Made by a program: the position numbers and the translations under genes
Shown: in pieces, positions 6,063 to 20,358 of the stretch
How positions within the stretch are numbered: position 1 is the first letter of the stretch
Layout: each line of letters opens with the position of its first letter
Notes under the pieces: model-generated
Seen by the model: only the letters and a program-made list of their open reading frames with translations
Told to the model about the DNA's origin: nothing
Database searches by the model: none
Virus record (IMG/VR): IMGVR_UViG_3300042013_000056
Location: 118,860-182,859 of that record
Length of the DNA: 64,000 nucleotides
Strand: one strand, 5' to 3'
From: a virus

Positions 6063-6105
6063 ATCAAGCGTTGTTTGTGCTGCGTTGTTGCTGTGACGTG
6101 AAACA

Positions 6106-9221: not shown

Positions 9222-9326
9222 TTGATGCCCATTCAAGGGCTTGCTGTATGCGGTATTAGCCGCGTCGCGAAGGGACGTTACAGCTACGACCACTCCACCG
9301 GCACATGGCAACCCATGGCGCTAAGT

Positions 9327-9407: not shown

Positions 9408-9462
9408 CAGGTTACAGTTTTGGTTTTCATATGCGAGAAAGTTTGGACTGCTGTTTGTAACC
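9408..9462 (-). ncRNA. AACAGCA-motif stem RNA, copy 1
   Basis: GGTTAC-A-AACAGCAG...AAAACT-GTAACC-TG. Confidence 0.6.
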
Positions 9463-9467
9463 TAAAT

Positions 9468-9541
9468 TGGCAGGGGTAGTAGGAATCGAACCTACGACAA
9501 CGATGTCAAAGACCGTTGTGATACCATTTCACCATACCCCA
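9468..9541 (-). tRNA. tRNA-Gln(TTG)
   Basis: CT-TTG-AC loop, CCA. Confidence 0.9.
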
Positions 9542-9691
9542 ATCTAACATGGTCAGCCGCTGCCTGACCGTAATACTACTTGTTCTTTACGAACTGGCTG
9601 TATCTGCGCTACGCGGGTCTGTTACCGTCATATTTCAACGGCTTGGTGTTTAACGTGCTTGAGACTCATACTCACACGATGCTTGCGCATT

Positions 9692-9781
9692 TGGCGGATA
9701 CAGTAGGTATCGAACCCAAGCCGTATTAACAGCCCAACTGGTTAGCAACCAGCGCTACCAAACCTTGGCAGATCAGTATCC
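9692..9781 (-). tRNA. tRNA-Ser(GCT)
   Basis: TT-GCT-AA, long variable arm, G73, CCA. Confidence 0.88.
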
Positions 9782-10014
9782 AAATCTTCTACAACAGTGC
9801 GGGATTCGAGGTAATCAATGTTTCTCTGATTACACACCAACACAACTCCGTACTTTTCACGTAATTCTTTGCTTGCTGCGATAGCCGCATCCAAACGTTC
9901 TTTCATTTTAGCGCGCTGTTCAGCCCTTTCATCCGGTGACTGTTGCTCATGATAACGCTTGAGCAATTCAGGGCACAGATGGAAGCCTGTATAACCGCAA
10001 TGATCACATTTCAA
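9742..10014 (-). CDS. Hypothetical protein (CxxC N-terminus); 3' end runs into tRNA-Ser
   Basis: 90-aa ORF coupled to 10011-10226. Confidence 0.55.
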   Translation of the reverse strand: MKCDHCGYTGFHLCPELLKRYHEQQSPDERAEQRAKMKERLDAAIAASKELREKYGVVLVCNQRNIDYLESRTVVEDLDTDLPRFGSAGC

Positions 10015-10226
10015 GCCGAAACTACCGGTGCGAGTACCGCTTCGATGAAAAACTTACCATCATCAACAATACCAGCGACCTGATGGCCTTCAACCATGAT
10101 ACCAACACGGCGCATATCGAATTCTTCTGAAGTGTTCCCGAACTTCGAATAGTCTGGAATGTAGCCAAGAGATTCAACACCCAAATCAACTTCAACAGGA
10201 ACTTCTTTCAACGGCAGATTCAACAT
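10011..10226 (-). CDS. Hypothetical protein
   Basis: 71 aa, preceded by TGAGA as in several genes in the array. Confidence 0.55.
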   Translation of the reverse strand: MLNLPLKEVPVEVDLGVESLGYIPDYSKFGNTSEEFDMRRVGIMVEGHQVAGIVDDGKFFIEAVLAPVVSA

Positions 10227-10251
10227 TTGATTCTCACATGGTTATAACAGT

Positions 10252-10342
10252 TGGCAGCGTTAAGAGGTATCGAACCCCAACCGGGATTAGCCGGTCGAAC
10301 TACTTTCCAAGTAGACCCCATCACCATCAAGGATTTAACGCT
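10252..10342 (-). tRNA. tRNA-Ser(GGA)
   Basis: TT-GGA-AA, long variable arm, CCA. Confidence 0.87.
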
Positions 10343-10347
10343 ATATT

Positions 10348-10470
10348 TGGTGCAATGTCGCGGAGTCGAACCACGTTGTATCTCACTGACTGGGCCAATT
10401 TATCCCAGCGTTTAGGAAGCTATCCGTTGGCAACTAAATCAGGTCAACAATACAAGACCATTCACAAAGC
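10348..10470 (-). ncRNA. tRNA-like RNA (T arm, acceptor and CCA, but no D or anticodon arm), ~123 nt
   Basis: 3' end CGTGG-TTCGACT-CCGCG-ACATTGC-A-CCA; 5' GCTTTGT; long internal TTGTAT/ATACAA stem. Confidence 0.6.
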
Positions 10471-10475
10471 ATATT

Positions 10476-10551
10476 TGGTGCGGGCAACAGGACTTGAACC
10501 TGCAACTTCCTGCTTGGCAAGCAGGTACTCTACCAATTGAGCTATGCACGC
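10476..10551 (-). tRNA. tRNA-Gly(GCC)
   Basis: CCTGC-TT-GCC-AA-GCAGG, CCA. Confidence 0.93.
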
Positions 10552-10567
10552 ATTTTGAAACTTAATT

Positions 10568-10644
10568 TGGTGCCCATAGCGAGAATCGAACTCGCTTTTT
10601 ACGGTTGAAAGCCGTATGTCCTAGACCGTGTAGACGATATGGGC
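10568..10644 (-). tRNA. tRNA-Glu(TTC)
   Basis: TACGG-CT-TTC-AA-CCGTA, CCA. Confidence 0.93.
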
Positions 10645-10648
10645 AAAG

Positions 10649-10762
10649 CTGGCTGCATTAACTGTAGTCGCCAGACCAGAGTTAGGATTCTCTGCCGGGA
10701 AATCGAATCCCGGTAATTTTCGTCAAAAGGAAAGTTTAGTTAATTGGTTGCTGTTAGCAGCC
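10649..10762 (-). ncRNA. AACAGCA-motif stem RNA, copy 2, with internal T-arm-like hairpin
   Basis: GGCTGC-T-AACAGCAA...CCGGG-ATTCGATT-TCCCGG, CAGAG/CTCTG...AAT-GCAGCC-AG. Confidence 0.6.
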
Positions 10763-10773
10763 GTTCCTGTTTT

Positions 10774-10879
10774 TGGTTTGATACATCCCTAGTTGCACTT
10801 CCTGAGAAGGAATTTACGCAATTGCAGCAACTTATTGGGATTCGATCAGTTGTCTCGGTTACTCTGACCTTGTATCAAA
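10774..10879 (-). ncRNA. CCA-terminated structured RNA (TTTGA...TCAAA-CCA family)
   Basis: Closing stem TTTGATACA/TGTATCAAA followed by CCA. Confidence 0.55.
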
Positions 10880-10881
10880 TT

Positions 10882-10965
10882 TGGTACGGAATGAGGGATT
10901 CGAACCCTCAAGGGCACGGCTTCTAAGGCCGTTAGCTGTGCCAGATTTGCATTAGCCAATTCCGC
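10882..10965 (-). tRNA. tRNA-Leu(TAG)
   Basis: ACGGC-CT-TAG-AA-GCCGT; large D loop and unusually short variable region; CCA. Confidence 0.85.
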
Positions 10966-10997
10966 ATTGTTTCGTTTTTCTGTTGCTTATACGTTAC

Positions 10998-11030
10998 ATT
11001 CTATATCAAATGTCACACAGAATAAACATT
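10998..11030 (-). promoter_or_regulatory. Early/middle-type promoter
   Basis: AATGTTTAT-N18-TAGAAT. Confidence 0.75.
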
Positions 11031-11043
11031 AGAATCAATTATT

Positions 11044-11118
11044 TGGTGGACCGCAAGGGGATCGAACCCTTACCCCCGACGTGCAAGGCCGGTGTGCTCC
11101 CATTATCACTAGCAGCCC
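11044..11118 (-). tRNA. tRNA-Ala(TGC)
   Basis: CT-TGC-AC loop, G3:U70 pair, CCA. Confidence 0.93.
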
Positions 11119-11128
11119 ATATTGTTAT

Positions 11129-11350
11129 TTAGGCGTACCCAACGAACACATCGTTGATATACATCTTTAATTTCTTTTGTGGTAGCGCCCACTGTGCAGC
11201 ATATTGAATGGCTTCACGGTACGATTTAAACGGCCCGCGACAATCACCCTGCCCACGGCCTGTTCCTACGAACCATTCGCCGTTATCGAGCTTACAGACG
11301 CCACACAAGCCGCGTGCAGCCCGTTGTTTCAGGACTTGCAATCTGGACAT
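11129..11350 (-). CDS. Hypothetical protein
   Basis: 73 aa with a TGAGA-type leader. Confidence 0.55.
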   Translation of the reverse strand: MSRLQVLKQRAARGLCGVCKLDNGEWFVGTGRGQGDCRGPFKSYREAIQYAAQWALPQKKLKMYINDVFVGYA

Positions 11351-11419
11351 ATCATTCTCACAATAGAAGGCTGCAACGTAACAAAGAACCAGTCTAAGCC
11401 AGTGGATGCAGCTCGTTTT

Positions 11420-11494
11420 TGGTAGTTCCGACCGGGAACGATCCGGTGATTTGTCCTTATGAGGGACTTGGTTTACCGATTAGCCTACGGAACT
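11420..11494 (-). tRNA. tRNA with CAT anticodon (elongator Met or Ile2)
   Basis: CT-CAT-AA loop, A1-U72 paired, CCA. Confidence 0.85.
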
Positions 11495-11578
11495 ATATTT
11501 TTGACCTCTTGAGTGGCTTCTCCCCGAAGGTTTCCGCTTATATTGCCACTGGGAGTCACCCCAACGCCCGAAGGTGAT

Positions 11579-11657
11579 TGGTTGCGGGTGCTGGATTCGA
11601 ACCAGCGAGCTTTGGCGTATGAAACCAATGAGATAGGCCAGACTTCTCTAACCCGCA
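11579..11657 (-). tRNA. tRNA-Met(CAT), initiator-like body
   Basis: TGCGGGT...ACCCGCA-ACCA resembles fMet, but it lacks the three G-C pairs in the anticodon stem. Confidence 0.82.
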
Positions 11658-11658
11658 A

Positions 11659-12009
11659 TTATTCTAATCTTAACCGCACATGTTCTTCACGATGGCAGTT
11701 GGCACATAGCATCAAACACTTATCTAACTCCGCCTGTATGACTACCCAAGCTTTGTTATGTGTGTTGGCACCTATGCCGAAGTCTTTCTGTGTTGGGTCT
11801 TTGTGATGGAACTCAAGGGCTTCTACACACTTGTTGTAGCCGCACGTTTCACATCTACCACCCTTGTATGCAATAGCCATCATTTTGACTTTAGCACGCC
11901 GACGTTTTACAGCGTCGTACATACACTTGCGACAGCGCTCATGGTATTTCTGCACCGAATGGACTGTTTCACCATGCTTGGCACAGACCTTGATTACTGT
12001 ATCTACCAC
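11659..12009 (-). mobile_element. HNH endonuclease
   Basis: CETCG...LEFHHKDP...KCLMLCANCHREEH; inserted between tRNA genes. Confidence 0.85.
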
Positions 12010-12024
12010 ATCAGACCTTATATT

Positions 12025-12099
12025 TGGTGCTACTAGCAGGACTCGAACCTACGCCGATCGATTATCGGTCGATTGCACTACCAACTGTGCTATAGTAGC
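12025..12099 (-). tRNA. tRNA-Ile(GAT)
   Basis: ATCGA-CC-GAT-AA-TCGAT (C33), CCA. Confidence 0.88.
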
Positions 12100-12115
12100 T
12101 TTGTATCATTGAATT

Positions 12116-12192
12116 TGGTCACCCTACACAGATTCGAACTGTGTCTTCATCGTCCCAAACGATGTGTGCTAGCCGTTGAACACTATAGGGAG
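12116..12192 (-). tRNA. tRNA-Pro(TGG), copy 1
   Basis: TT-TGG-GA loop, CCA. Confidence 0.9.
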
Positions 12193-12194
12193 AT

Positions 12195-12276
12195 TGGTGG
12201 GTTATTGGTGGAATCGAACCACCGACCGTATCATACGTCCTGTACAAGACAGAATGAACAGCCAAACATGTAACCC
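12195..12276 (-). tRNA. Aberrant tRNA-like gene (Tyr-like, irregular D and anticodon arms)
   Basis: Good T arm, acceptor and ACCA; long variable arm; anticodon register ambiguous (TTGTACA). Confidence 0.5.
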
Positions 12277-12290
12277 ATGAAACTTTAAAT

Positions 12291-12366
12291 TGGTCACCCC
12301 GAACAGATTTGAACTGTTTCTTCATCGTCCCAAACGACGTGTGCTACCGTTGAACACTACGGGGAG
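12291..12366 (-). tRNA. tRNA-Pro(TGG), copy 2
   Basis: Near-duplicate of 12116-12192. Confidence 0.9.
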
Positions 12367-12629
12367 TTAATAGCAGGTTGGCACCCTTTAACTATTGTGT
12401 CTGAGGATAATTTCCGACACGCACACAGTTATATCCCACTGTTCGGTTGCTACTTATTCTCTGTAGCCGATATCCAAGCGAACTTGGCGGTTTGATTGGT
12501 GTATTGTTGTTTGAACGAGTTCGGCAACAATAGTCCTATCTCTCTAGTATTTTTAGAGGTTTGCTGTATTCCAACCTAATTGTGTAGGGTTAGATAGCCC
12601 TACGACCGTGCGGGGAGCAACAGTGTTCT

Positions 12630-12911
12630 TTACTTGTGCATGACATCTAACAGATACTGGAAATCACTATCAGCGGCCTTGTAGGCAGCTTGGCGACGTT
12701 CTTCCAATAACTCTGGTGTCATCACTTTAAGGTCGGCCAATAAAATACTGACACGAACCTTGGAATTTTTGATTACTACGCCTGCTTCGGACATAATCCG
12801 TTTACATCTGGCATCGGATTTACCGGTATACTCAACGACCTTGAACCAGCCGCGTTTGTCTTGGTAAAAACCTTTGTTGGAAAATACCAACGAACCCACT
12901 TGGACTGTCAT
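12630..12911 (-). CDS. Hypothetical protein
   Basis: Start trimmed to ATG 12911 (MTVQVGS) to remove overlap with the upstream gene. Confidence 0.6.
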   Translation of the reverse strand: MTVQVGSLVFSNKGFYQDKRGWFKVVEYTGKSDARCKRIMSEAGVVIKNSKVRVSILLADLKVMTPELLEERRQAAYKAADSDFQYLLDVMHK

Positions 12912-12915
12912 GTAT

Positions 12916-13251
12916 TTAGCGACCCCGATTTGCGAGCAAATGGTTACGAACTGCCTCGGCATGTGCGATTGCATCTTCATACATTTTCTCGACTTGCTGA
13001 ACGCTGATTTTCGTTACCCAAGCAACTTCAATCGGTTTACCCGGCTTTGGGTTGCTGGTGATGTATTCATTGTTGTCAACCAGACGTTTTGCCTTTACAT
13101 GCAAAATACCTTGGATTTCCAATACTTCTGAAACAACACCAATACCATCACGACCTTTGTTGCCGACACGGATTTTGATCAAATCACCAAACTGAATGTC
13201 TTTCGCAAGATCGTCTTGCATTCGCTTTTGCAAATGTGTCATCTGGTTCAA
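12916..13251 (-). CDS. Hypothetical protein (possible SH3/KOW-like beta fold)
   Basis: 111 aa, GDLIKIRVGNKGRDGIGVV. Confidence 0.6.
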   Translation of the reverse strand: MNQMTHLQKRMQDDLAKDIQFGDLIKIRVGNKGRDGIGVVSEVLEIQGILHVKAKRLVDNNEYITSNPKPGKPIEVAWVTKISVQQVEKMYEDAIAHAEAVRNHLLANRGR

Positions 13252-13272
13252 TATATAATTCTCACAATGAAT

Positions 13273-13375
13273 TGTATCTGAATCACCGGGTCAGTTACGC
13301 AACACCCTTTCGGGCACCCAATCTTTCAGGGCTTTACCGGCTAGCTGATTTTAGGGCTTTCGCCTACGATTCAAA
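13273..13375 (-). ncRNA. Structured RNA with GNRA-capped hairpins
   Basis: TTTGAATC/GATTCAGA closing stem; TAGGC-GAAA-GCC and GCCC-GAAA-GGGT hairpins. Confidence 0.5.
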
Positions 13376-13377
13376 TT

Positions 13378-13481
13378 TGGTTTGAACAGTTGGGTACGCA
13401 ATGATTACGTCATTTCACCCTCTCCACTTCGAGGCGACTGACCTAAGCCAGTTGTAATCACCCACAGATGTGTTGTTCAAA
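13378..13481 (-). ncRNA. CCA-terminated structured RNA (TTTGA...TCAAA-CCA family)
   Basis: TTTGAACA/TGTTCAAA plus CCA; shares AGGTCAG and ATTGCGTA with 10774-10879. Confidence 0.55.
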
Positions 13482-13483
13482 TT

Positions 13484-13559
13484 TGGTGCCGCAGAAAGGA
13501 CTCGAACCCTCAACCTTCTCATTACAAGTGAGCTGCACTACCAGTTGTGCTACAGCGGC
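13484..13559 (-). tRNA. tRNA-Thr(TGT)
   Basis: CT-TGT-AA loop, CCA. Confidence 0.9.
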
Positions 13560-13732
13560 TTTTTGTATTCCTGTCTCATAACAAAACGATTCATCAAAGC
13601 ATTAGCCAATGGATCATTGAGTAAATTTTTAATCAAATCCGGGGCCATCGGTTGAACCGATAGAAGTTCTCTTGCGAGTTGTTCCGGGTCAAACTTTGTA
13701 GCCCATTCACTCAACTGTTCTTTGGTCAGCAT
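13550..13732 (-). CDS. Hypothetical protein
   Basis: 60 aa; ends in TAG inside the 5' end of tRNA-Thr. Confidence 0.4.
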   Translation of the reverse strand: MLTKEQLSEWATKFDPEQLARELLSVQPMAPDLIKNLLNDPLANALMNRFVMRQEYKKPL

Positions 13733-14019
13733 GGTTCAGTCCGAAGAAGTGGATACTTCTCTTTGAAGCTTTCATGTTGACCACACCCGGAACACACATG
13801 AATGTATTTCGGTGGGTAAGTCAGGTAAGCTTCACCGGTTGCTACGAACTGCCCAACACAATTATTATGATCGGCGTGTACCTGATACGTTCGAACTTCA
13901 ACCTTGCGTTCTGTTAACAGTGCAGCTCTATTACGCTGAAACCGTTCAATCGCTTCTTCTCGGTTCATCATTTCCCACGTTTCTCCACAAGAGACTTTGC
14001 AAAATTGCAAGGCGAACAC
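13726..14019 (-). CDS. Hypothetical CxxC protein (true start probably near 13971)
   Basis: HVCSGCG zinc-ribbon-like motif. Confidence 0.5.
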   Translation of the reverse strand: MFALQFCKVSCGETWEMMNREEAIERFQRNRAALLTERKVEVRTYQVHADHNNCVGQFVATGEAYLTYPPKYIHVCSGCGQHESFKEKYPLLRTEPC

Positions 14020-14384
14020 ATGGTGGTTGTATTGCTGACATTATCAGCACCACCCGCACTTCTCGCTAACGTATGATCATGAGTAAACAGAATCTCATTG
14101 CCCTTTTTATCTTTGCCCCAGAGGTTCAGATGATATGGAAAATCATCAGTCTCTCTGACAGGACGTTCCACCGCATAGTAAGACGCGTGCAGCCCACATG
14201 CAGAACATTTGGTGCTACGATAAAACGTTCTTAACCGGGTTCCGCGACTGAACAGCTTGACTTGTTTACCAAACAGTTCAGTTCTGGGTTGATCCTTTGG
14301 GGAAGCTCCGACGACAGTTTTCTGTCTAGCCCGAATTTCCTTGATGTCAACAACACCTATACGATGATAATCTTGCGGCTTCAT
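13968..14384 (-). CDS. HNH endonuclease-family protein
   Basis: CSACG...FTHDHTLARSAGGADNVSNTTTMCSPCN; has its own promoter. Confidence 0.8.
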   Translation of the reverse strand: MKPQDYHRIGVVDIKEIRARQKTVVGASPKDQPRTELFGKQVKLFSRGTRLRTFYRSTKCSACGLHASYYAVERPVRETDDFPYHLNLWGKDKKGNEILFTHDHTLARSAGGADNVSNTTTMCSPCNFAKSLVEKRGK

Positions 14385-14414
14385 TGTATCAATCTCTTGC
14401 TTGGTTATGAATCA

Positions 14415-14447
14415 AGCATACCAGCATTGGAACAGAATGTAAACATT
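14415..14447 (-). promoter_or_regulatory. Early/middle-type promoter
   Basis: AATGTTTAC-N18-TATGCT. Confidence 0.75.
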
Positions 14448-14458
14448 TGAATCGAATT

Positions 14459-14655
14459 TGGTCGTGGGGGCCGGACTCGAACCAACGACCTTCGGCTTAG
14501 TTGCCGATGCTCTTAAAAACCGATAACCGCCAATGTGTCATCCGGAAAGCAACGCCCATATCCACAAAACACTTCTACTGGCATCTAGCGTCTACTATAT
14601 CGGTCGCGCACCGATGTTCAACATTCGAAATTTAATCCAACTGAGCTACCCCACG
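14459..14655 (-). ncRNA. tRNA-like RNA with a 123-nt insertion in the D loop and a 6-nt anticodon loop
   Basis: CGTGGGG-TA-GCTC-AGTTGGA[insert 14513-14635]GAGC-A-TCGGC-AACTAA-GCCGA-AGGTC-T arm-CCCCACG-ACCA. Confidence 0.75.
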
Positions 14656-14764
14656 TTGCGCCATGGTTTTAGATTCAGACCCATGAACTGAATATTGCCT
14701 TGCGGCTACCTGATACTAAAGTCGGGGTTCCCATTAAAGGGGTATCCAACAATTGCATCAAATT

Positions 14765-14841
14765 TGGCTGGATATCTTGGAATCGAACCAAGCTCAAGTG
14801 ATTAACAGTCACCCCGCAGCCGCCATGGCGCGTCATATCCA
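14765..14841 (-). tRNA. tRNA-Asn(GTT), copy 1
   Basis: CT-GTT-AA, G73, CCA. Confidence 0.88.
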
Positions 14842-14849
14842 ATTTAATT

Positions 14850-14925
14850 TGGTGGGGTTCTTTGGATTCGCACCAACAACTGCGAAGTCGATGCCACGCC
14901 GCTTTCCTAATTAAGCTACAACCCC
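14850..14925 (-). ncRNA. Aberrant tRNA-like RNA (irregular anticodon arm, TGCGAAT T loop)
   Basis: GGGGTTG acceptor, D stem GCTT/AAGC, ACCA. Confidence 0.6.
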
Positions 14926-14994
14926 TTCGTCACCCGATTCTTTCACTTCGGGTCTAGCGAGTGTTCGTTACCTTAGACATCGGGGTATCGAATT

Positions 14995-15071
14995 TGGCTC
15001 CGGTAGTAGGACTCGAACCTACGACCTGACGGTTAACAGCCGCCTGCTCTACCAACTGAGCTATACACGGA
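14995..15071 (-). tRNA. tRNA-Asn(GTT), copy 2
   Basis: CT-GTT-AA; bulged nucleotide in the acceptor stem; CCA. Confidence 0.87.
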
Positions 15072-15081
15072 ATTGAAATTT

Positions 15082-15172
15082 TGGTGGGGAACAGAAGACT
15101 TGCACTTCCAACCTTGGCTACTGGCCGACTATACCGGCGCTCGCCATGCTCTGCTAATTGAGCTAATTCCCC
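15082..15172 (-). ncRNA. tRNA-like RNA with the anticodon loop replaced by an extended hairpin
   Basis: GGGGAAT/GTTCCCC, GCTC/GAGC, TGGC-GAGC-GCCGG-TATAG-TCGGC-CAGTA-GCCA, T loop TGCAAGT, ACCA. Confidence 0.7.
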
Positions 15173-15228
15173 AGTACCGAATGCAATGATTGGAGTGGCG
15201 TGTACTTAGCCAGCCTCACATTGCATTC

Positions 15229-15308
15229 TGCTCTGTTGTGGATATCCCATTCCCATTGCACGTTCATAACGTCGGTGGAGGCATCGAACCCCGGATAAGA
15301 CAACAGCA
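15229..15308 (-). ncRNA. Circularly permuted tRNA-mimic (YrlA-like topology) candidate
   Basis: Closing stem TGCTGTTGT/ACAAC-AG-AGCA, then T arm GGGG-TTCGATG-CCTC, hairpin ACGT/ACGT, and a D-loop-like AATGGGAAT. Confidence 0.45.
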
Positions 15309-15333
15309 TTCTTTTTGATCGTTAGATCGAATT

Positions 15334-15412
15334 TGGTGGGAAAGGATGGAATTCAACCATCGTATTGCAGTGTCCAATGTTAACTGCTGCTCTTACATTC
15401 AGCCACTTTCCC
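15334..15412 (-). ncRNA. tRNA-like RNA with an 11-nt anticodon loop
   Basis: GGGAAAG/CTTTCCC, GCAGT-TAACATTGGAC-ACTGC, ACCA. Confidence 0.7.
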
Positions 15413-15568
15413 TTTGGTCACCATCTTATAAACCGCTGATGAACGCGGTACAAGCTGCCACCGGTTGTTGCTACACCGATTAGACCTGTTGTCCCGAGAA
15501 GCCGCTAAGCTTCAATTGGAACCATCATACGTGGCCTTACTACGTCTAGTTAGCACTACAGCATTGTT

Positions 15569-15652
15569 TGGTGGATCAGGTAGGGATCGAACCTACTTCG
15601 CCAGCGGCATGGGGTTACAGCCCACTAGGACTACCTGTGTCCCGTCTGATCC
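15569..15652 (-). tRNA. tRNA-Tyr(GTA), copy 1
   Basis: CT-GTA-AC, long variable arm, CCA; CTAAATA late promoter at 15659-15665. Confidence 0.9.
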
Positions 15653-15975
15653 ATGTTCTATTTAGATCGGAGCAAATGGCTCAACAATCTGGAATTAGTA
15701 GCACCCGGTAAAAGGTCACATCATTGATCAATGATGCTAACGTGCAATAGTTAGACACTTTGTCAGTCAAACAGGATTCTTTAACGAATTCCCCCATTAT
15801 ATCTCGGCTGATTGTTTCAAGAACATCCAGCAAATCTTCTACCGATTAACGTCCGGTTGTATCCCGACATGGTTATGTTGTGAACCAGTACACACCAACC
15901 TGTTAACGAACAGCAGGGACAACCGCATGCATTTTACCCAGTGCATGATGGGATGTGCCGTTTACCCGGCAAATT

Positions 15976-16051
15976 TGGTGGGAAAGGATGGACTTGCACC
16001 ACCCCACACCCGCTGTTAGCAGGCAGCTCTAGCTATCTGAGCTACTTTCCC
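15976..16051 (-). ncRNA. Aberrant tRNA-like RNA (loop CTAACAG, nominal anticodon AAC; T loop TGCAAGT)
   Basis: Same GGGAAAG/CTTTCCC acceptor as 15334-15412; the anticodon stem can extend to leave a 3-nt loop. Confidence 0.65.
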
Positions 16052-16052
16052 A

Positions 16053-16185
16053 TGGTGACGATTGAGTTCTATTGGTGATCGTCAAACCGCAAAACCCCTG
16101 AACTTTTGGGGATCAACGCTTATCCCCTTGGGCGTTGACAGAAACCAGTCGATACCCGAAGGCGTTAGAACTGAGGGAGTTTCCA
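16053..16185 (-). ncRNA. CCA-terminated multi-hairpin RNA with a possible pseudoknot
   Basis: 3' hairpin TGACGAT/ATCGTCA-CCA; its loop TAGAACT is complementary to the 5' AGTTCTA. Confidence 0.5.
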
Positions 16186-16187
16186 TT

Positions 16188-16264
16188 TGGTGGGTCGTCT
16201 GGGATTCGAACCCAGAACCTTCCGGTTAAAAGCCGGATATTCTAAACCGTTGAATTAACGACCC
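16188..16264 (-). tRNA. tRNA-Lys(TTT)
   Basis: TCCGG-CT-TTT-AA-CCGGA, CCA. Confidence 0.93.
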
Positions 16265-16279
16265 GGTGAAACTTGAATT

Positions 16280-16355
16280 TGGCGCCCATGAACGGACTCG
16301 AACCGTCAACTTACCGCTAGACAGGCGGTTACTCTACCAATTGAGTTACATGAGC
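16280..16355 (-). tRNA. tRNA-Asp(GTC)
   Basis: ACCGC-CT-GTC-TA-GCGGT, G73, CCA. Confidence 0.92.
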
Positions 16356-16361
16356 TTTTAA

Positions 16362-16426
16362 CTGGATACCATTGGTCTTTTCAAAGATTAAAGGTTTGAA
16401 TGATTTATGGTTTGCTGTTGGTATCC
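16362..16426 (-). ncRNA. AACAGCA-motif stem RNA, copy 3
   Basis: GGATAC-C-AACAGCAAA...AATG-GTATCC-AG. Confidence 0.65.
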
Positions 16427-16432
16427 AAAACT

Positions 16433-16502
16433 TGGTGCAGTAGCTGGATTTGACACCGGCATCAGTCGCTTTAGAGGCGTTGACTTCTTTAGTCGATACT
16501 GC
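16433..16502 (-). tRNA. Degenerate second CUA (amber) tRNA-like gene
   Basis: GCAGTA/TACTGC-ACCA, loop CT-CTA-AA on a 3-bp CGC/GCG stem, 8-nt T loop. Confidence 0.55.
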
Positions 16503-16558
16503 AAATGGGGCCGATCATTCGGTTAAATTCCCCGGTAATTCTGTTTGCTTATACGGTA

Positions 16559-16591
16559 ATTGTATCACAACACAACCACCAAATAAACATT
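16559..16591 (-). promoter_or_regulatory. Early/middle-type promoter
   Basis: AATGTTTAT-N18-TACAAT. Confidence 0.75.
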
Positions 16592-16600
16592 GAAACTTAA

Positions 16601-16658
16601 CTAGTTGCACTTTTGCTTTCAAGCCAATATGAAATTTAAGTGTTTGCTGTTGGCAACT
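16601..16658 (-). ncRNA. AACAGCA-motif stem RNA, copy 4
   Basis: AGTTGC-C-AACAGCAAA...AAAAGT-GCAACT-AG. Confidence 0.65.
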
Positions 16659-16663
16659 AAAAC

Positions 16664-16738
16664 TGGTACATCCGGTTGGACTCGAACCAACATAAGTCGG
16701 CTTAGAAGGCCGATGCACTTCCGTTATACCACGGATGT
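16664..16738 (-). tRNA. tRNA-Arg(TCT)
   Basis: TCGGC-CT-TCT-AA-GCCGA, CCA. Confidence 0.92.
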
Positions 16739-16746
16739 ATTGAAAC

Positions 16747-16825
16747 TGGTGGGCCAAAGCGGGATTCGAACCCTACCCTCATCCACTCTCTGGGATGCGC
16801 TCTATCCGCTAAGCTACTCGGACCC
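16747..16825 (-). ncRNA. Aberrant tRNA-like RNA (8-nt anticodon loop, extended acceptor stem)
   Basis: CATCC-CAGAGAGT-GGATG; canonical T loop; ACCA. Confidence 0.65.
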
Positions 16826-16838
16826 ATTTGATGTAATC

Positions 16839-16871
16839 AATATATCATATCAATCACACAAATTAAACATT
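16839..16871 (-). promoter_or_regulatory. Early/middle-type promoter
   Basis: AATGTTTAA-N18-TATATT. Confidence 0.7.
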
Positions 16872-16885
16872 GAAACTAAATTATT

Positions 16886-16973
16886 TGGCGGGCCACTGAG
16901 GTATCGATCCCCAATCGCGAAACGATCCACTAGTTTTCAAGACTAGGCTACCAGCCATGGCAGTTAATGACCC
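16886..16973 (-). tRNA. tRNA-Ser(TGA)
   Basis: CTAGT-CT-TGA-AA-ACTAG, long variable arm, G73, CCA. Confidence 0.9.
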
Positions 16974-16974
16974 A

Positions 16975-17166
16975 TTAAATCTGTTTGAACACTGGCAGGT
17001 TGTAGGTATGCATTCTTACGAATTCACGACAATCCAATTTAATTGGATTGCCTACAGTGTGTGGTGTACGTTCAGTGAACAATCCACCGTCGTCTTGCTC
17101 TACAAGGTACAACAACATGCAATTGCCGGTTGTGCCTTCCAGTTGTCCTTTAAAATACCGATCCAT
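16975..17166 (-). CDS. Hypothetical protein
   Basis: 63 aa, coupled to neighbours. Confidence 0.5.
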   Translation of the reverse strand: MDRYFKGQLEGTTGNCMLLYLVEQDDGGLFTERTPHTVGNPIKLDCREFVRMHTYNLPVFKQI

Positions 17167-17379
17167 TCAAAGCCCCATTACACTGACCAGAAGGCCATAT
17201 TCTTGGATCATCTGATAGTTACGACCAGCATAGAAGAATTTGATGATACTAGACCCTTCAAACTCGATGCTTGGTTGAAACGAAACCAAATCCATGTGTT
17301 CATCTAATACGCCAATCACTTCATGGAAGTCGCTTGGGTTCAGATTTGTCTGAATGCTTTTCAAGTCTTTTGGAAACAT
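17167..17379 (-). CDS. Hypothetical protein
   Basis: 70 aa. Confidence 0.5.
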   Translation of the reverse strand: MFPKDLKSIQTNLNPSDFHEVIGVLDEHMDLVSFQPSIEFEGSSIIKFFYAGRNYQMIQEYGLLVSVMGL

Positions 17380-17540
17380 TAAGCTGGTTCCTTTGGTATC
17401 ATAAACGCGGGAGTCGGAGTGAATCGTTTCGGATTCCGTCCAGACCCTACGATGGTTAGCACCGGCTTTTGACGCTTAACCGGCTGTGAACCAAGTGTCC
17501 AGAAGCTGTTCAAGCCCCAGAAATTACCACGTTGTTTCAT
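17379..17540 (-). CDS. Hypothetical 53-aa basic protein
   Basis: Start trimmed to ATG 17540 after a TGAGA leader; the longer ORF crosses tRNA-Gly. Confidence 0.45.
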   Translation of the reverse strand: MKQRGNFWGLNSFWTLGSQPVKRQKPVLTIVGSGRNPKRFTPTPAFMIPKEPA

Positions 17541-17562
17541 AATATAAGTCTCACAATGAAAT

Positions 17563-17638
17563 TGGAGCGGACGACGAGACTTGAACTCGCAACAGCCTGC
17601 TTGGAAGGCAGGAACTCTACCAATTGAGTTACGTCCGC
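17563..17638 (-). tRNA. tRNA-Gly(TCC)
   Basis: CCTGC-CT-TCC-AA-GCAGG, U73, CCA. Confidence 0.93.
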
Positions 17639-17758
17639 AAATGGAAAGCACTGTCTCACGACGTTCTCGCCACCGAATACCCAAGGCGCGGGTAATTCGT
17701 TTGTCAAGCACCGGTTAACTTGAAGCTTTTGTTCCGGCTGTGCCTGACTTGTGAATCT

Positions 17759-17791
17759 ACTATAACAGGGTTCTGTTCAATTCTAAACATT
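17759..17791 (-). promoter_or_regulatory. Early/middle-type promoter
   Basis: AATGTTTAG-N18-TATAGT. Confidence 0.75.
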
Positions 17792-17806
17792 GAAACAGAA
17801 ATAATT

Positions 17807-17884
17807 TGGTGTGGATGATCGGACTCGAACCGACTCCTACCGGGTTTCAGGCCCGGTCGCTTCGTCCCTGTTAGCTTCATCTAC
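17807..17884 (-). tRNA. Atypical tRNA, loop CCTGAAA (TGA by register with C33; GAA if shifted)
   Basis: 6-bp ACCGGG/CCCGGT anticodon stem, short variable loop, ACCA. Confidence 0.6.
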
Positions 17885-17889
17885 AGATT

Positions 17890-17965
17890 TGGTGGGTTCA
17901 AACGGTAACGATCCGTTATCTATGGCTTTTCAGACCATCGCTTGTACCATATAAGCTATGAACCC
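17890..17965 (-). tRNA. tRNA-Phe(GAA)
   Basis: CT-GAA-AA, CCA. Confidence 0.92.
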
Positions 17966-17968
17966 ATA

Positions 17969-18089
17969 ACAGAATGCATTTATCTATCGGCACGATTCGA
18001 ACGTGCTTCTCCCTATGCCAAGGGTGGTTTACCTACATAACCTACGCTGCAAAGATTGGTTGCATGAGATTGGTTGCTGTTAGCATTCT
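17969..18089 (-). ncRNA. AACAGCA-motif stem RNA, copy 5, enclosing a tRNA-like core
   Basis: GAATGC-T-AACAGCAA...GGTT/AACC, CCCT/AGGG, GCACG-TTCGAAT-CGTGC...AAAT-GCATTC-TG. Confidence 0.65.
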
Positions 18090-18097
18090 AAGGCATT

Positions 18098-18181
18098 TGG
18101 TGCGTTAGGTAGGGATCGAACCCACTGTGCCATCGGCGCCGCTTTACAGGCGGTTGGGACTACCCTTGTCCCGTCTAACGC
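18098..18181 (-). tRNA. tRNA-Tyr(GTA), copy 2
   Basis: CT-GTA-AA, long variable arm, CCA. Confidence 0.9.
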
Positions 18182-18196
18182 ATTGAAACTAAAATT

Positions 18197-18272
18197 TGGT
18201 GCCCGTAGAGGGATTCGAACCCCCAACCCCTCGGTTCGTAGCCGAGGATTCATCCAGTTGAACTTTACGGGC
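18197..18272 (-). tRNA. tRNA-Arg(ACG)
   Basis: CTCGG-CT-ACG-AA-CCGAG, CCA. Confidence 0.93.
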
Positions 18273-18275
18273 AAT

Positions 18276-18300
18276 AAAAAGGGAGCCAATGGCTCCCTTT
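18276..18300. terminator. Intrinsic terminator
   Basis: AAAAAGGGAGCC-A-TGGCTCCCTTT-type perfect hairpin with A/T tails. Confidence 0.75.
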
Positions 18301-18324
18301 AAGAAAATCGATGCAACAACCGAA

Positions 18325-18453
18325 TCAAATATCCGGGCGTTCGTCTTCTTGGGAACCAATTGTAACGGTTTTGCCGAAATTAAAGGCAAAGCGATCCTGT
18401 ACCGGATATCCAGCATTTTTCAGAGAGCGATTTGTGATAGTCATTGACGACAT
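18325..18453 (-). CDS. Small (42 aa) probable late protein
   Basis: MSSMTITNRSLKNAGYPVQDRF..., between a CTAAATA promoter (18492-18498) and a terminator. Confidence 0.45.
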   Translation of the reverse strand: MSSMTITNRSLKNAGYPVQDRFAFNFGKTVTIGSQEDERPDI

Positions 18454-18537
18454 GGCTTTAATTCCAATTTGTAAAACAGTTGATGTACTTGTATTTAGCG
18501 TTGTGTTTTTGAAAAATCATCGGTTTTCGAAAATAAT

Positions 18538-18810
18538 TCAAAAATAATTTTCACCGGTTGTTTGATACCGTGTCCAATCCATGATCATGTATTCCAGCCT
18601 AGACCGGAACGACCACAGGAAACCATACTCTGCAAAGTCCTCAGACTTCGCTACAGCCATTTGTTGAGTCAGTGTGCGGATTTCCCCGAACACTGACATC
18701 ACAGTCGTCATACCGGCTTGTAGACGGTCTACGATCATTTGTTGCAACCATGCTTCACCCTTGGAACCGTAGTGGTTCGCATAGGCCAGCACAAACTCAT
18801 CAAATGTCAT
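18538..18810 (-). CDS. Hypothetical protein
   Basis: 90 aa with AAGG RBS. Confidence 0.6.
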   Translation of the reverse strand: MTFDEFVLAYANHYGSKGEAWLQQMIVDRLQAGMTTVMSVFGEIRTLTQQMAVAKSEDFAEYGFLWSFRSRLEYMIMDWTRYQTTGENYF

Positions 18811-18823
18811 AGACCACCTTTCC

Positions 18824-20221
18824 TTACCAGTCGTAACGCGGAACGTTCAGAGTGTCCAACATCATAGACAGTGGGGTCACTTCTGGAACATCAGTTGCCG
18901 CCAGAATCGATTTCATGATTGCTGGACTGAATCCAGTAACCATCGCAGTACCACCAACACCGAAGCTAACTGGCACGTTACCGAAACTGGAGTTCATGTT
19001 CCAGAAAATGATGTCCGGGCGTTTGTAGCCAGCGGCTGCATACATACGGTCAATCATTTCGAACGCTGAATCATTTTGGAAACCACGGTCCACGCTATTG
19101 AACTGCATGTCAGACCACAACAGAATCTTGGTCGGCATGTCTTCAACCGGAACTTTGTGTTTCACCGCCGATTTCAGAATCAGTTCGAACGACTTTTGCA
19201 GGTTGGTAGAACCACCCCACGGTGCAGATTTTGTCTTGCGAACACGTTCGGTCAGTGTCTTGCAGTCCGACAGGTCCACCCATGTAGGGTTACTATCAAA
19301 CGTGATGAACTGATCCTTGAAGATGCCCTTGGAACGCTCTGCAACGTAGATACCCAGAGATACCGCCACATCCATACAGGTCAGGCCCGGAGACGCGTTG
19401 TAGTTGCTCATAGAGCCCGACACATCGACGATACCAATCAGGTTCTCTTTCGAGTCTGCAAGGTAATCTGGCAATGCTTTCCACTGCGCATCAGCAACAC
19501 CCTGAACACCATTCAAACCGCGAATGACATCGTAAGGGAAGATCGCACCGGCATTGATGGTGGTTTTGCCTGTAGCAAGACCGTCAACCCATTCTTGGTA
19601 CGCTTCTGGTGCATTACGCTTGAATGCCTTCTGGTAGTTCTTCGACGCAACCGATGGAAGCTTGCTGAAATCGATTTCGTTCCACTGCTGGGCACACATC
19701 TTCTGTTCAACAGTGTTGGACAGCTTGACGATCATTTTGCGGTAGTTGCGTTCGGTCAATTCGAACTGATTCATGAAGAACCGAGAATACTTCTTGCCTT
19801 CACGCGGCATCCACTTCGCACACAGACCGTTATTGTCAAGCAGAGCCTGAGCAACGATTTCAGTGATAACGAAGTCCAGTTGCTCACTGATACCGATCAG
19901 TTGCCACAGGTCATCCCAACGACCAACTTCCGGGATTTTTGCGATGATACGCGCTGTGGTGTGAATGTGTTGTTCACGGGCGATTTGCCCCATCAACGAA
20001 CGGAAAGTCTGACGTTCACCAGCACCACCGCGAATATCACGAACCCACAACAGTTGACGAACTGCCAAATCGGCATCTTCGTTGTACGCAGCACGGAACT
20101 GGCTCGACAGGTCAAGACCACGGGCCGAACCGATCTTGGCGAACAGATCGACGTTTGCATTGAAGCTGGTTTTCTGTGCAGCCATACCGTTGGTGGTACG
20201 AGTCATGTTAGTTTGATTCAT
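18824..20221 (-). CDS. TROVE/Ro60-like RNA-binding protein with C-terminal vWA domain (DUF2828-type)
   Basis: Start trimmed to ATG 20221 (promoter lies at 20260-20292). N-terminus TTNGM...VDLF, RDIRGGAGER, GRWDDL, AKWMPRE; vWA MIDAS DVSGSM. Confidence 0.8.
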   Translation of the reverse strand: MNQTNMTRTTNGMAAQKTSFNANVDLFAKIGSARGLDLSSQFRAAYNEDADLAVRQLLWVRDIRGGAGERQTFRSLMGQIAREQHIHTTARIIAKIPEVGRWDDLWQLIGISEQLDFVITEIVAQALLDNNGLCAKWMPREGKKYSRFFMNQFELTERNYRKMIVKLSNTVEQKMCAQQWNEIDFSKLPSVASKNYQKAFKRNAPEAYQEWVDGLATGKTTINAGAIFPYDVIRGLNGVQGVADAQWKALPDYLADSKENLIGIVDVSGSMSNYNASPGLTCMDVAVSLGIYVAERSKGIFKDQFITFDSNPTWVDLSDCKTLTERVRKTKSAPWGGSTNLQKSFELILKSAVKHKVPVEDMPTKILLWSDMQFNSVDRGFQNDSAFEMIDRMYAAAGYKRPDIIFWNMNSSFGNVPVSFGVGGTAMVTGFSPAIMKSILAATDVPEVTPLSMMLDTLNVPRYDW

Positions 20222-20259
20222 TATGTATTCTCTCACAAGTTGTTCTGATTTATGTGCCC

Positions 20260-20292
20260 ATCGTAGCATGGTTTGATTCTGTTTTAAACATT
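20260..20292 (-). promoter_or_regulatory. Early/middle-type promoter
   Basis: AATGTTTAA-N18-TACGAT upstream of the TROVE-like gene. Confidence 0.7.
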
Positions 20293-20325
20293 GGAACAGA
20301 ATTATTTTCACAAATGTTTAGGCGT

Positions 20326-20352: not shown

Positions 20353-20358
20353 AGAATG

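What the first reader, a model, noticed from the sequence alone, without database searches (positions are those of the whole stretch)
9408..18089. Dispersed family of AACAGCA stem RNAs next to a Ro60/TROVE-like gene: candidate phage Y-RNA system
Seen: five intergenic elements (9408-9462, 10649-10762, 16362-16426, 16601-16658, 17969-18089) share a 6-bp stem of different sequence each time (GGTTAC, GGCTGC, GGATAC, AGTTGC, GAATGC, all with perfect partners), then N-AACAGCA(A), a variable loop of ~30-95 nt, an AA-rich...T segment, the partner strand and (A/T)G. Partial copies occur near 6080, 9240 and 12560. Two loops carry tRNA T-arm modules. A TROVE/vWA gene with its own promoter lies at 18824-20221. 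Known: bacterial Ro60 binds a bulged helix in Y RNAs that tethers variable, often tRNA-like, effector domains, and ro60 loci co-occur with RNA repair and decay genes. Inference: the stem plus AACAGCA is the binding site for the phage TROVE protein, and the array is a set of Y-like adaptors or decoys. The motif differs from the GNCGAA Y-RNA consensus, so it may be a new class.
Basis: partly seen in the sequence, partly recalled or inferred. Interest (0 to 1): 0.8.

Follow-up and report, generated by a model that had tools for sequence, protein, structure and literature searches.

The report
Phage Ro60-like protein's partner RNAs
This 183-kb Pseudomonas-type phage carries six small RNA genes, scattered among its tRNA genes, that share one conserved "handle"; the same handle travels with a Ro60-shaped protein gene (DUF2828) in every distant phage I tested, so they are most likely that protein's partner RNAs, a branch of the Ro60/Y-RNA particle that I found in neither Rfam nor the papers searched.

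Summary
On the minus strand of the tRNA island there are six closed RNA elements, not five. Each has a 7-bp terminal stem (6 bp in one), three spacer bases (four in one copy), unpaired CAGCA(A), a variable 30-180 nt cargo, the partner strand and an invariant G. Shuffled windows give 0.8 such elements.

The stem covaries perfectly. In 24 copies from 8 phages all 167 cells pair and all 7 pairs show compensatory changes.

The gene at 18824-20221 is DUF2828 + DUF7788. Its AlphaFold model matches only Ro60 structures at full length.

A covariance model found the RNA in 15 of 15 DUF2828 phages (Pseudomonas, E. coli, Aeromonas, Vibrio, Campylobacter, Rhizobium, Yersinia, Listeria, Enterococcus, Bacillus, Staphylococcus, Fusobacterium, Mycobacterium). 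In most it lies within 1 kb on the gene's strand. Of 10 other large phages chosen without knowing their gene content, only the one carrying the gene had the RNA. Phages with canonical Ro60 had none.

The handle is not the Y-RNA GNCGAA motif. It closely resembles Dictyostelium Class I RNAs.

Binding is inferred, not shown. This scan has already reported the same pairing on other DNA (at least 274 genomes).

The parts
9408..9463 (-). CAGCA-handle RNA E1, short form (56 nt). Lies between tRNA-Gln and tRNA-Val. P1 is AGGTTAC/GTAACCT followed by G. The cargo is a hairpin, TTTC-UCGCAUAU-GAAA.
   Evidence: R2 E-value 7.7e-8. The Astolliot orthologue has a compensatory A>G / T>C change in the stem.
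10649..10763 (-). CAGCA-handle RNA E2, long form (115 nt), upstream of tRNA-Glu. P1 is GGCTGC/GCAGCC (6 bp). The cargo runs: hairpin, T-arm (TTCGATT loop), closed hairpin, small D-like hairpin. The T-arm-then-closed-hairpin order is that of YrlA.
   Evidence: This type is conserved in Bas63 and in Rhizobium phage RHph_I1_18, with compensatory changes in the T-stem.
12374..12577 (-). CAGCA-handle RNA E6, long form (204 nt), downstream of tRNA-Pro. P1 is AGGTTGG/CCAACCT followed by G, with a 4-nt spacer (aata).
   Evidence: Orthologues in L003, L004 and L005 have AGGATGG/CCATCCT.
16362..16427 (-). CAGCA-handle RNA E3, short form (66 nt), just upstream of tRNA-Asp. P1 is TGGATAC/GTATCCA followed by G. 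The cargo is a hairpin, TTCAAA-CCUUUAAUC-UUUGAA.
   Evidence: R2 E-value 1.8e-7. A similar AUUUAAU loop occurs in Bas63 copy L007 11337-11405.
16601..16659 (-). CAGCA-handle RNA E4, short form (59 nt), just downstream of tRNA-Arg(TCT). P1 is TAGTTGC/GCAACTA followed by G. The cargo is a hairpin, TTTCA-UAUUGGCU-UGAAA.
   Evidence: R2 E-value 4.0e-9.
17970..18089 (-). CAGCA-handle RNA E5, long form (120 nt), between tRNA-Tyr and tRNA-Phe, 735 nt downstream of the DUF2828 gene. P1 is AGAATGC/GCATTCT followed by G. The cargo runs: hairpin with a CCAAUCU loop, D-arm-like stem, short anticodon-like stem, perfect T-arm.
   Evidence: Orthologues are aligned.
18824..20221 (-). Gene for a 465-aa DUF2828 + DUF7788 (vWA) protein with the Ro60 fold. 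This is the proposed protein partner. The MIDAS residues D266, S268, S270, T339 and D371 are invariant among 20 homologues.
   Evidence: Pfam DUF7788 2.3e-48 and DUF2828 2.4e-23. AlphaFold2 pLDDT 80.5, pTM 0.77. Foldseek: the 12 best entries are all Ro60, E 2.6e-9 to 1.8e-6, TM 0.45-0.57. Invariant columns.
20285..20296 (-). Copy of the island's repeated promoter-like motif TTYCAATGTTTA, 64 nt upstream of the DUF2828 start codon.
   Evidence: 10 matches in the window, 8 of them on the minus strand between 11 and 25 kb, against 1.7 expected. This is a motif match only.
9240..9252 (-). Stemless ACAGCAAG fragment between tRNA-Val and tRNA-Thr. Possibly a decayed copy.
   Evidence: No partner strand was found (one search gives only a 6/7 match inside an ORF).
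6087..6099 (-). Stemless ACAGCAAC fragment in the leader of the tRNA-His / tRNA(CUA) unit.

Best explanation
The six elements are the RNA subunits of a phage Ro60-like ribonucleoprotein.

Inferred biogenesis: they are transcribed with the tRNAs from the phage's own promoters on the minus strand. They are released when the host tRNA-processing enzymes cut out the flanking tRNAs, and are trimmed to the stem plus G(U).

Shown by comparative evidence only: the shared handle travels with the DUF2828 gene. The handle is a 7-bp terminal stem whose ends are conserved (5' W-R-R ... Y-Y-W 3'), an unpaired NNN-CAGCA(A) on the 5' strand only, and a G after the 3' strand.

Inferred function: the handle is the docking site for the DUF2828 protein at 18824-20221, a HEAT-repeat ring plus a vWA/MIDAS domain. 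The variable middle of each RNA is cargo. In three copies it is a short hairpin whose loop type is conserved across very distant phages. In the others it is a tRNA-like elbow (T-arm, D-arm).

By analogy with Rsr-YrlA-PNPase, the cargo presents tRNA-like surfaces to host RNA enzymes. It would either tether one to the ring or soak up tRNA-directed defence nucleases, which helps the phage early in infection.
For: The RNA is real. P1 pairs in 119 of 119 cells in 17 copies and in 167 of 167 cells in 24 copies from 8 phages. All 7 pairs show compensatory changes, while slid controls pair in 26-44% of cells. CAGCA is invariant.

The protein has the Ro60 fold.

Linkage:
- Model R1, built only from this phage group, hits copies beside the DUF2828 gene in Lumos (9.5e-5), Listeria P200 (1.2e-4), Campylobacter NCTC12673 (4.4e-4) and an Aeromonas-type contig (4.8e-4).
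- Model R2 hits 15 of 15 DUF2828 phages. In 12 the hit lies on the gene's strand and close by: within about 1 kb in 10 of them, and in the adjoining tRNA array in Bas63 and Astolliot. Six of these 12 phages were not used to build the model.
- Among 10 other large phages, only GAP32 has the gene and only GAP32 has hits.
- In Aeromonas LAh_6 and contig L006, six copies in tandem, with no tRNA between them, end 14 nt before the gene's ATG.

The architecture parallels Y RNAs: a terminal stem plus a conserved bulge motif near the 5' end, and tRNA-like cargo. The Lumos long copy scores 39 bits on Rfam YrlA through its T-arm, closed hairpin and D-arm.

Published work on homologues:
- Bas63 gp130 (40% identical) is Ro60-like and counters the ppl defence system. 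The authors guessed that some Bas63 'tRNA genes' are Y RNAs (PMC11482910).
- The Listeria phage CKA15 homologue lies within 2 kb downstream of highly transcribed non-coding regions that the authors suspected to be Y RNAs (PMC12282133).
Against: There is no binding, expression or end-mapping data for this phage or for any CAGCAA RNA.

In three T4-like or jumbo phages the RNAs lie 9-205 kb from the gene, and about 200 kb away in GAP32, so adjacency is not universal.

The handle lacks the GNCGAA/CGAA motif that canonical Ro60 contacts.

In Dictyostelium, the one protein known to bind the look-alike Class I RNAs directly is an RRM protein, Rnp1A, not a Ro-like protein (PMC7919456).

The most heavily transcribed CKA15 region (26,236-26,727) is not the CAGCAA array, which lies at 25,290-25,552.

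The co-occurrence sample is 25 phages. The 15 positives were chosen because they have the gene.
Confidence: 0.72

Rival explanations
1. The handle is recognised by some other protein, either a host factor or another phage protein that happens to travel with DUF2828. The DUF2828 link is then indirect.
For: Dictyostelium Class I RNAs, which have almost the same handle, are directly bound by the RRM protein Rnp1A. In jumbo and T4-like phages the RNAs are far from the gene.
Against: Co-occurrence is 16 of 16 against 0 of 9, and the negatives include tRNA-rich phages. Copies abut the gene's ribosome-binding site in Aeromonas, Campylobacter and Vibrio phages. The protein has the fold of a known RNA-binding ring. 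No other gene was seen to be shared by all the loci listed.
Confidence: 0.12
2. The protein does bind these elements, but they are regulatory operators or a titrating sponge that sets the level of free DUF2828 protein and its translation, rather than working subunits with cargo.
For: In several phages the last copy sits in the gene's 5' leader. L006 9913-9964 ends 14 nt before the ATG. In the Vibrio phi-Grn1 copy the 3' stem strand overlaps the start codon. The second Campylobacter copy ends 20 nt before the ATG.
Against: In this window no copy lies in the gene's leader, 20222-20358. In Lumos and Staphylococcus phage S-CoN_Ph3 the copies lie downstream of the gene. Cargo types (T-arm module, specific hairpin loops) are conserved between phages of different phyla, which a mere operator would not need.
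Confidence: 0.1
3. The elements are only punctuation or stabilising hairpins for processing the long tRNA transcripts. They are degraded after tRNA maturation.
For: In this window every copy sits in a 'tRNA slot', 4-7 nt from the neighbouring tRNAs, and has an acceptor-stem-sized helix.
Against: Tandem arrays occur without tRNAs in Aeromonas, Listeria and Staphylococcus phages. tRNA-rich phages without DUF2828 (T4, T5, Vi01, K, SPO1, LP65, Bxz1, CcrColossus) have none. The invariant unpaired CAGCA and the trailing G are not needed for a spacer.
Confidence: 0.05

Closest known systems
Bacterial and phage Ro60 (Rsr, TROVE + vWA) with Y RNAs: YrlA/YrlB, Yrn1, and Thermus phage phiLo Yrl1/Yrl2 (Rfam RF02553; Chen et al. 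2014, PMC4201824; PMC12135203)
   Same: The protein is a ring-shaped HEAT-repeat fold plus a vWA/MIDAS domain. There are several small RNAs per genome, on the gene's strand and usually close to it. Each RNA is closed by a 5'-3' terminal stem with a conserved unpaired motif near the 5' end. The variable domain often mimics tRNA, in the order T-arm, closed hairpin, D-arm. One relative's long copy scores 39 bits on YrlA.
   Different: The protein belongs to another sequence family. Pfam gives DUF2828/DUF7788, with no TROVE match at E <= 0.01 and no Ro60 hit by phmmer against PDB sequences. The handle motif is CAGCA(A), not GNCGAA/CGAA. The window copies give no Y_RNA or YrlA match even at E <= 5. 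Phages with canonical Ro60 (Bxz1, CcrColossus) lack the CAGCAA RNA. Half of the copies are minimal 55-66 nt RNAs with only one hairpin as cargo.
Class I RNAs of dictyostelid social amoebae (Rfam RF01414; Kjellin et al. 2021, PMC7919456)
   Same: The layout is almost identical: 42-65 nt, a short covarying terminal stem, a conserved roughly 11-nt motif directly after the 5' stem strand (Rfam consensus CUUACAGCAA), a variable A-rich middle, a start of (A)AG and an end of CUGU. The Rfam model aligns end to end with five phage copies at 25.7-29.8 bits.
   Different: All scores are below the family's gathering score of 41.5. The window's own copies (CAA/TAA-CAGCA) give no match. Class I RNAs were reported as unique to Dictyostelia, have their own Pol promoter element (DUSE), and are known to bind the RRM protein Rnp1A. 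Whether amoebae pair them with a DUF2828 protein was not tested here.
Small stable RNAs encoded in phage tRNA clusters, such as T4 species 1 and 2 RNAs (from memory, not checked here)
   Same: They are non-tRNA structured RNAs that sit in tRNA arrays and are released by tRNA processing.
   Different: T4 has neither the DUF2828 gene nor any match to the model. No shared motif is known.

Membership tests
Ro60 / TROVE protein family | Sequence match to the TROVE domain (Pfam PF05731) or to solved Ro60 proteins | tested here: not met
   Pfam at E <= 0.01 gives only DUF7788, DUF2828 and a weak VWA_CoxE. phmmer against all PDB sequences finds no Ro60.
Ro60 / TROVE protein family | Fold: HEAT-repeat ring followed by a vWA domain with MIDAS residues | tested here: met
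   The AlphaFold2 model (pLDDT 80.5) has all 12 best Foldseek entries in Ro60 structures at full length, E 2.6e-9 to 1.8e-6, TM 0.45-0.57. DxSxS...T...D is invariant in 20 homologues.
Ro60 / TROVE protein family | Binds Y RNA or misfolded RNA | not testable with these tools
   This needs EMSA, CLIP or a structure.
Y RNA / YrlA (Rfam RF00019, RF02553) | Score at or above the Rfam gathering threshold | tested here: not met
   No match in the window at the gathering score or at E <= 5. The best relative, the Lumos long copy, scores 39.3 bits against 69.
Y RNA / YrlA (Rfam RF00019, RF02553) | GNCGAA(N0-1)G / CGAA motif in the Ro-binding stem region | tested here: not met
   All copies have NNN-CAGCA(A) instead. 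The motif definition comes from PMC4201824 and PMC12135203.
Y RNA / YrlA (Rfam RF00019, RF02553) | Terminal 5'-3' stem plus a tRNA-like module, encoded within about 4 kb of the Ro gene on the same strand | tested here: met
   E5 lies 0.7 kb from the gene and E4 and E3 lie 2.2-2.4 kb away, on the same strand. E1, E2 and E6 lie 6-9 kb away. T-arms are present in E2 and E5.
Dictyostelium Class I RNA (Rfam RF01414) | Score at or above the gathering threshold (41.5 bits) | tested here: not met
   The window gives no match at E <= 5. Copies in relatives score 25.7-29.8 bits.
Dictyostelium Class I RNA (Rfam RF01414) | Short terminal stem, conserved motif next to the 5' stem strand, 3' end CUG(U) | tested here: met
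   7-bp stem, (N)NN-CAGCAA, partner strand ending in CT/CA, then G-T in E1, E3, E4 and E5. Consensus comparison.
CAGCA-handle RNAs that accompany DUF2828 genes (working family of this scan; not in Rfam) | 7-bp covarying terminal stem, 3 (rarely 4) nt, unpaired CAGCA(A/C), variable cargo, partner strand, G | tested here: met
   Six copies in the window. The three short ones score E 4e-9 to 2e-7 with the cross-phylum model R2.
CAGCA-handle RNAs that accompany DUF2828 genes (working family of this scan; not in Rfam) | A DUF2828/DUF7788 gene in the same genome | tested here: met
   Gene at 18824-20221. Across phages, 16 of 16 with the gene have the RNA and 0 of 9 without it do.

The most novel reading that the evidence does not exclude
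The CAGCA handle and the DUF2828 ring would form an ancient, cross-domain ribonucleoprotein family, parallel to Ro60/Y RNA. It is present in phages of at least five bacterial phyla and, as the unexplained Class I RNAs, in social amoebae. In phages the handle would act as a universal adaptor onto which interchangeable tRNA parts are grafted (anticodon-loop-like hairpins, T/D elbows, whole tRNA bodies). That would give a programmable set of decoys or tethers aimed at tRNA-directed host immunity and RNA decay.
Probability: 0.35. Interest if true: 0.9.

Novelty: new variant of a known kind. Interest (0 to 1): 0.77.

Why it matters
DUF2828 is a large family of unknown function. By tblastn it occurs in 710 of 50,697 phage records, and there are thousands of metagenomic relatives. 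The DUF2828 literature hits are papers on plants and a tardigrade, so the family also occurs in eukaryotes.

Two recent papers guessed that a phage homologue works with Y-like RNAs but could not name them (PMC11482910, PMC12282133). A defined handle with a searchable model gives the family a concrete RNA ligand. That makes several things directly testable:
- EMSA, CLIP and cryo-EM of the complex.
- How Bas63 gp130 counters a defence system.
- Why phage tRNA islands hold 'non-tRNA' genes.
- Whether Dictyostelium Class I RNAs, open since 2004, are Y-like RNAs.

It also shows that phage genome annotation is missing a recurrent class of RNA genes, which are often mis-called as small ORFs.

Tried and rejected
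- The plain MAFFT alignment of copies from all phyla (A4) misaligned the 3' strands. I used the model-guided alignment A6 instead.
- Models R1 and R2 miss or barely reach the long forms (E2, E5, E6). Those rest on the descriptor scan and on orthologues.
- Rfam gave no Y_RNA or YrlA match in the window.
- I considered MITE, REP, attC-like DNA hairpins and self-cleaving ribozymes. I dropped them because of the single-strand bias, the RNA-type covariation, the tRNA-like cargo and the absence of any Rfam match.
- I expected the top-transcribed CKA15 region to be the CAGCAA array. It is not. That paper supports expression near the gene only loosely.
- The PHROG label 'RNA ligase' for 6490-6996 would have suggested an RNA-repair neighbour. 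Pfam shows it is Acb1, an anti-CBASS protein.
- The identity of the CUUUUAA hairpin with the host tRNA-Lys anticodon arm is from memory and could not be checked. That copy is absent from this window.
- Whether Dictyostelium has a DUF2828 gene was not tested, because no eukaryotic genomes are on hand.

Full report
**Setting.** The window is the last 64 kb of a complete 182,859-bp phage genome. Its nearest public relatives are Pseudomonas phages Astolliot and Milchi, at about 75% nucleotide identity over short stretches. Between 3.5 and 22 kb everything is read from the minus strand. ARAGORN tRNA genes and Rfam adds a few more. Small ORFs and HNH endonucleases are interspersed among them.

**Observation.** Their common plan is more regular than reported. 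Each has a 7-bp stem P1 (6 bp in 10649-10763), three spacer bases, CAGCA(A), a variable middle, the partner strand and then G. The 'partial copy' near 12560 is a full sixth member, 12374-12577, with a 4-nt spacer. Its orthologues in three related contigs carry AGGATGG/CCATCCT in place of AGGTTGG/CCAACCT. The copies near 9240 and 6080 keep ACAGCAA but I found no closing stem for either. A strict descriptor gives 6 hits in the window against 0.8 +/- 0.9 in shuffles. No copy lies elsewhere in the genome.

**Structure.** In 17 short copies from this phage group P1 is never broken (119 cells), and four of its pairs show double changes. G3, U5 and C7 and the AACAGCA are invariant. RNAfold leaves the CAGCA stretch unpaired. 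It predicts a short inner helix that stacks directly on the 3' strand of P1, and then a hairpin whose 3' side is GAAA followed by an A-rich run. The handle is therefore a one-sided bulge on the 5' strand. The three long copies carry tRNA parts. E2 has a T-arm, then a closed hairpin, then a small D-like hairpin. E5 has a D-arm, a short anticodon-like stem and a perfect T-arm.

**The gene.** The ORF 18824-20221 encodes 465 residues that match DUF7788 (2.3e-48) and DUF2828 (2.4e-23). It does not match TROVE or any solved Ro60 by sequence. An AlphaFold2 model from 20 homologues (pLDDT 80.5, pTM 0.77) has its 12 best Foldseek matches in Ro60 structures at full length: Thermus phage phiLo, Deinococcus Rsr, Xenopus and human. 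These have E 2.6e-9 to 1.8e-6 and TM 0.45-0.57. Isolated vWA domains come next. The MIDAS residues are invariant. It is therefore Ro60-like in fold but a separate sequence family.

**Co-occurrence.** tblastn finds the gene in 710 phage records from many hosts. I examined thirteen of those lineages beyond the window's own group.
- In the first looked at, an Aeromonas-type contig and phage LAh_6 (protein 44% identical), model R1 hit a cluster just upstream of the gene. R1 was built only from the window's phage group. There are nine same-strand copies with the variant handle TTN-CAGCAA. Six of them stand in tandem with no tRNA between them, and the last ends 14 nt before the ATG.
- Reading the intergenic DNA next to the gene in Bas63, Campylobacter NCTC12673, Listeria P200, mycobacteriophage Lumos and Vibrio phi-Grn1 showed the same handle each time.
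- With filters off, R1 scores these copies at E 1e-4 to 1e-3. Sixteen of its 17 hits at E <= 2 are such copies.
- A model-guided alignment of 24 copies from 8 phages has 100% paired cells and compensatory changes at all seven pairs, against 26-44% pairing when the partner is slid. That alignment was fitted to the model, so the percentage paired leans its way.
- Model R2, built from that alignment, finds the RNA in 15 of 15 DUF2828 phage records. This includes six phages that contributed nothing to the model (Vibrio MS02, Staphylococcus S-CoN_Ph3, Rhizobium RHph_I1_18, Enterococcus EF1, Bacillus MrDarsey, Fusobacterium Fnu1). In those six the best hits lie 20-550 nt from the gene on its strand.
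- In three T4-like or jumbo phages the hits are 9, 10.5 and 205 kb away.

**Control.** I took ten other large, mostly tRNA-rich phages without knowing whether they carry the gene. R2 gave significant hits only in GAP32 (five at E < 0.01). PF25043 was found only in GAP32. T4, T5, phiKZ, K, SPO1, Vi01 and LP65 had neither. Neither did Bxz1 and CcrColossus, which carry canonical Ro60. The tally is 16 of 16 against 0 of 9.

**Comparison with known RNAs.**
- Rfam has no family for the window copies.
- The Lumos long copy matches YrlA at 39 bits, below the 69-bit cut-off. The match lies in the T-arm, closed hairpin and D-arm, not in the handle. Canonical Y RNAs carry GNCGAA/CGAA. These RNAs carry CAGCA(A).
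- Following a lead in this scan's earlier notes, I checked Rfam's Dictyostelium Class I RNA model. Its consensus is stem-CUUACAGCAA-(A-rich)-stem-UG. It aligns end to end with five phage copies at 26-30 bits, below the 41.5-bit cut-off.
- The published description fits the phage RNAs closely: 42-65 nt, a covarying terminal stem, a motif beside the 5' strand, a start of AAG and an end of CUGU. Those RNAs were thought to be unique to Dictyostelia, and they bind an RRM protein. Whether a DUF2828 protein is involved there was not tested.

**Literature.** I found no description of this handle. Two papers come close. PhageMaP shows that Bas63 gp130, a homologue, is Ro60-like and counters the ppl defence, and it guesses that some Bas63 'tRNA genes' are Y RNAs. 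A Listeria CKA15 study finds the homologue in virions and suspects that nearby highly transcribed regions are Y RNAs. The CAGCAA copies of CKA15 lie at 25,290-25,552, next to but not inside the region that study names.

**Mechanism.** Shown: a conserved, covarying RNA family; a Ro60-fold protein; tight phyletic and positional linkage between the two. Inferred: the protein binds the handle; the RNAs are freed by tRNA processing; the cargo engages host tRNA-binding enzymes. The island also encodes Acb1 (anti-CBASS) and a suppressor tRNA, which suits an anti-defence setting. I put the partner-RNA reading at about 0.7. The specific tether-or-decoy role is much less certain.

**Earlier work in this scan.** The same pairing has been reported from at least 274 other genomes. 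This window is a further instance, in a Pseudomonas-type phage where the RNAs occupy tRNA slots.

Noticed in passing
window 6490-6996 (-): A 168-aa protein matching Pfam Acb1, anti-CBASS protein 1 (2.1e-32). PHROGs labels the family 'RNA ligase'. It is followed by a metallophosphoesterase (6997-7872) and a YqeY-like protein (7965-8360).
   Followed up: partly
window 11023-24887 (-): The motif TTYCAATGTTTA occurs 8 times on the minus strand of the tRNA island, with 1.7 expected in the whole window. It stands ahead of tRNA groups and of the DUF2828 gene, so it is a likely phage-specific promoter element.
   Followed up: partly
L002 18779-18843; L001 19133-19197; L006 9602-9665; L021 970-1029; L012 2656-2711: Some copies in relatives carry a 5-bp hairpin with a 7-nt loop shaped like an anticodon loop. 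CUUUUAA occurs in Pseudomonas and Aeromonas phages with an identical 20-nt stretch. CUGCUAA occurs in a Vibrio phage and a mycobacteriophage. From memory, the first looks like the tRNA-Lys(UUU) anticodon arm. This window lacks that copy.
   Followed up: partly
L009 940-983 (Vibrio phage phi-Grn1): A single handle copy lies in the 5' leader of the DUF2828 gene, and its 3' stem strand overlaps the start codon. This may allow the protein to regulate its own translation.
   Followed up: no
L013 3237-3728 (Listeria phage cka15, record 26,236-26,727): The most heavily transcribed, non-coding region of cka15 reported in PMC12282133 is a separate RNA of about 490 nt. It lies between tRNA-Pro and tRNA-Met, upstream of the CAGCAA array, and has no handle.
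   Followed up: no
L021 1135-1378 (Vibrio phage MS02): A 244-nt handle-closed element encloses tRNA-like bodies. Rfam calls a tRNA at 1210-1323 at 52 bits, with a long insertion that itself contains AACAGCAAACC.
   Followed up: no
window 5903-5978 (-): ARAGORN calls a tRNA with anticodon CUA, an amber suppressor, next to tRNA-His. Other notes of this scan deal with it.
   Followed up: no
window 15549-15742 (+): This is the only descriptor hit on the plus strand (GTTAGCA cta CAGCATT ... TGCTAAC G). It lies antisense to the tRNA-Tyr region and is probably chance.
   Followed up: no
window 2263-2760 (-) and 1226-2263 (-): A late sigma-factor-like protein (phrog_234, 2.2e-40) and an SbcD-like nuclease subunit (phrog_100, 9.3e-102) sit at the edge of the island.
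   Followed up: no
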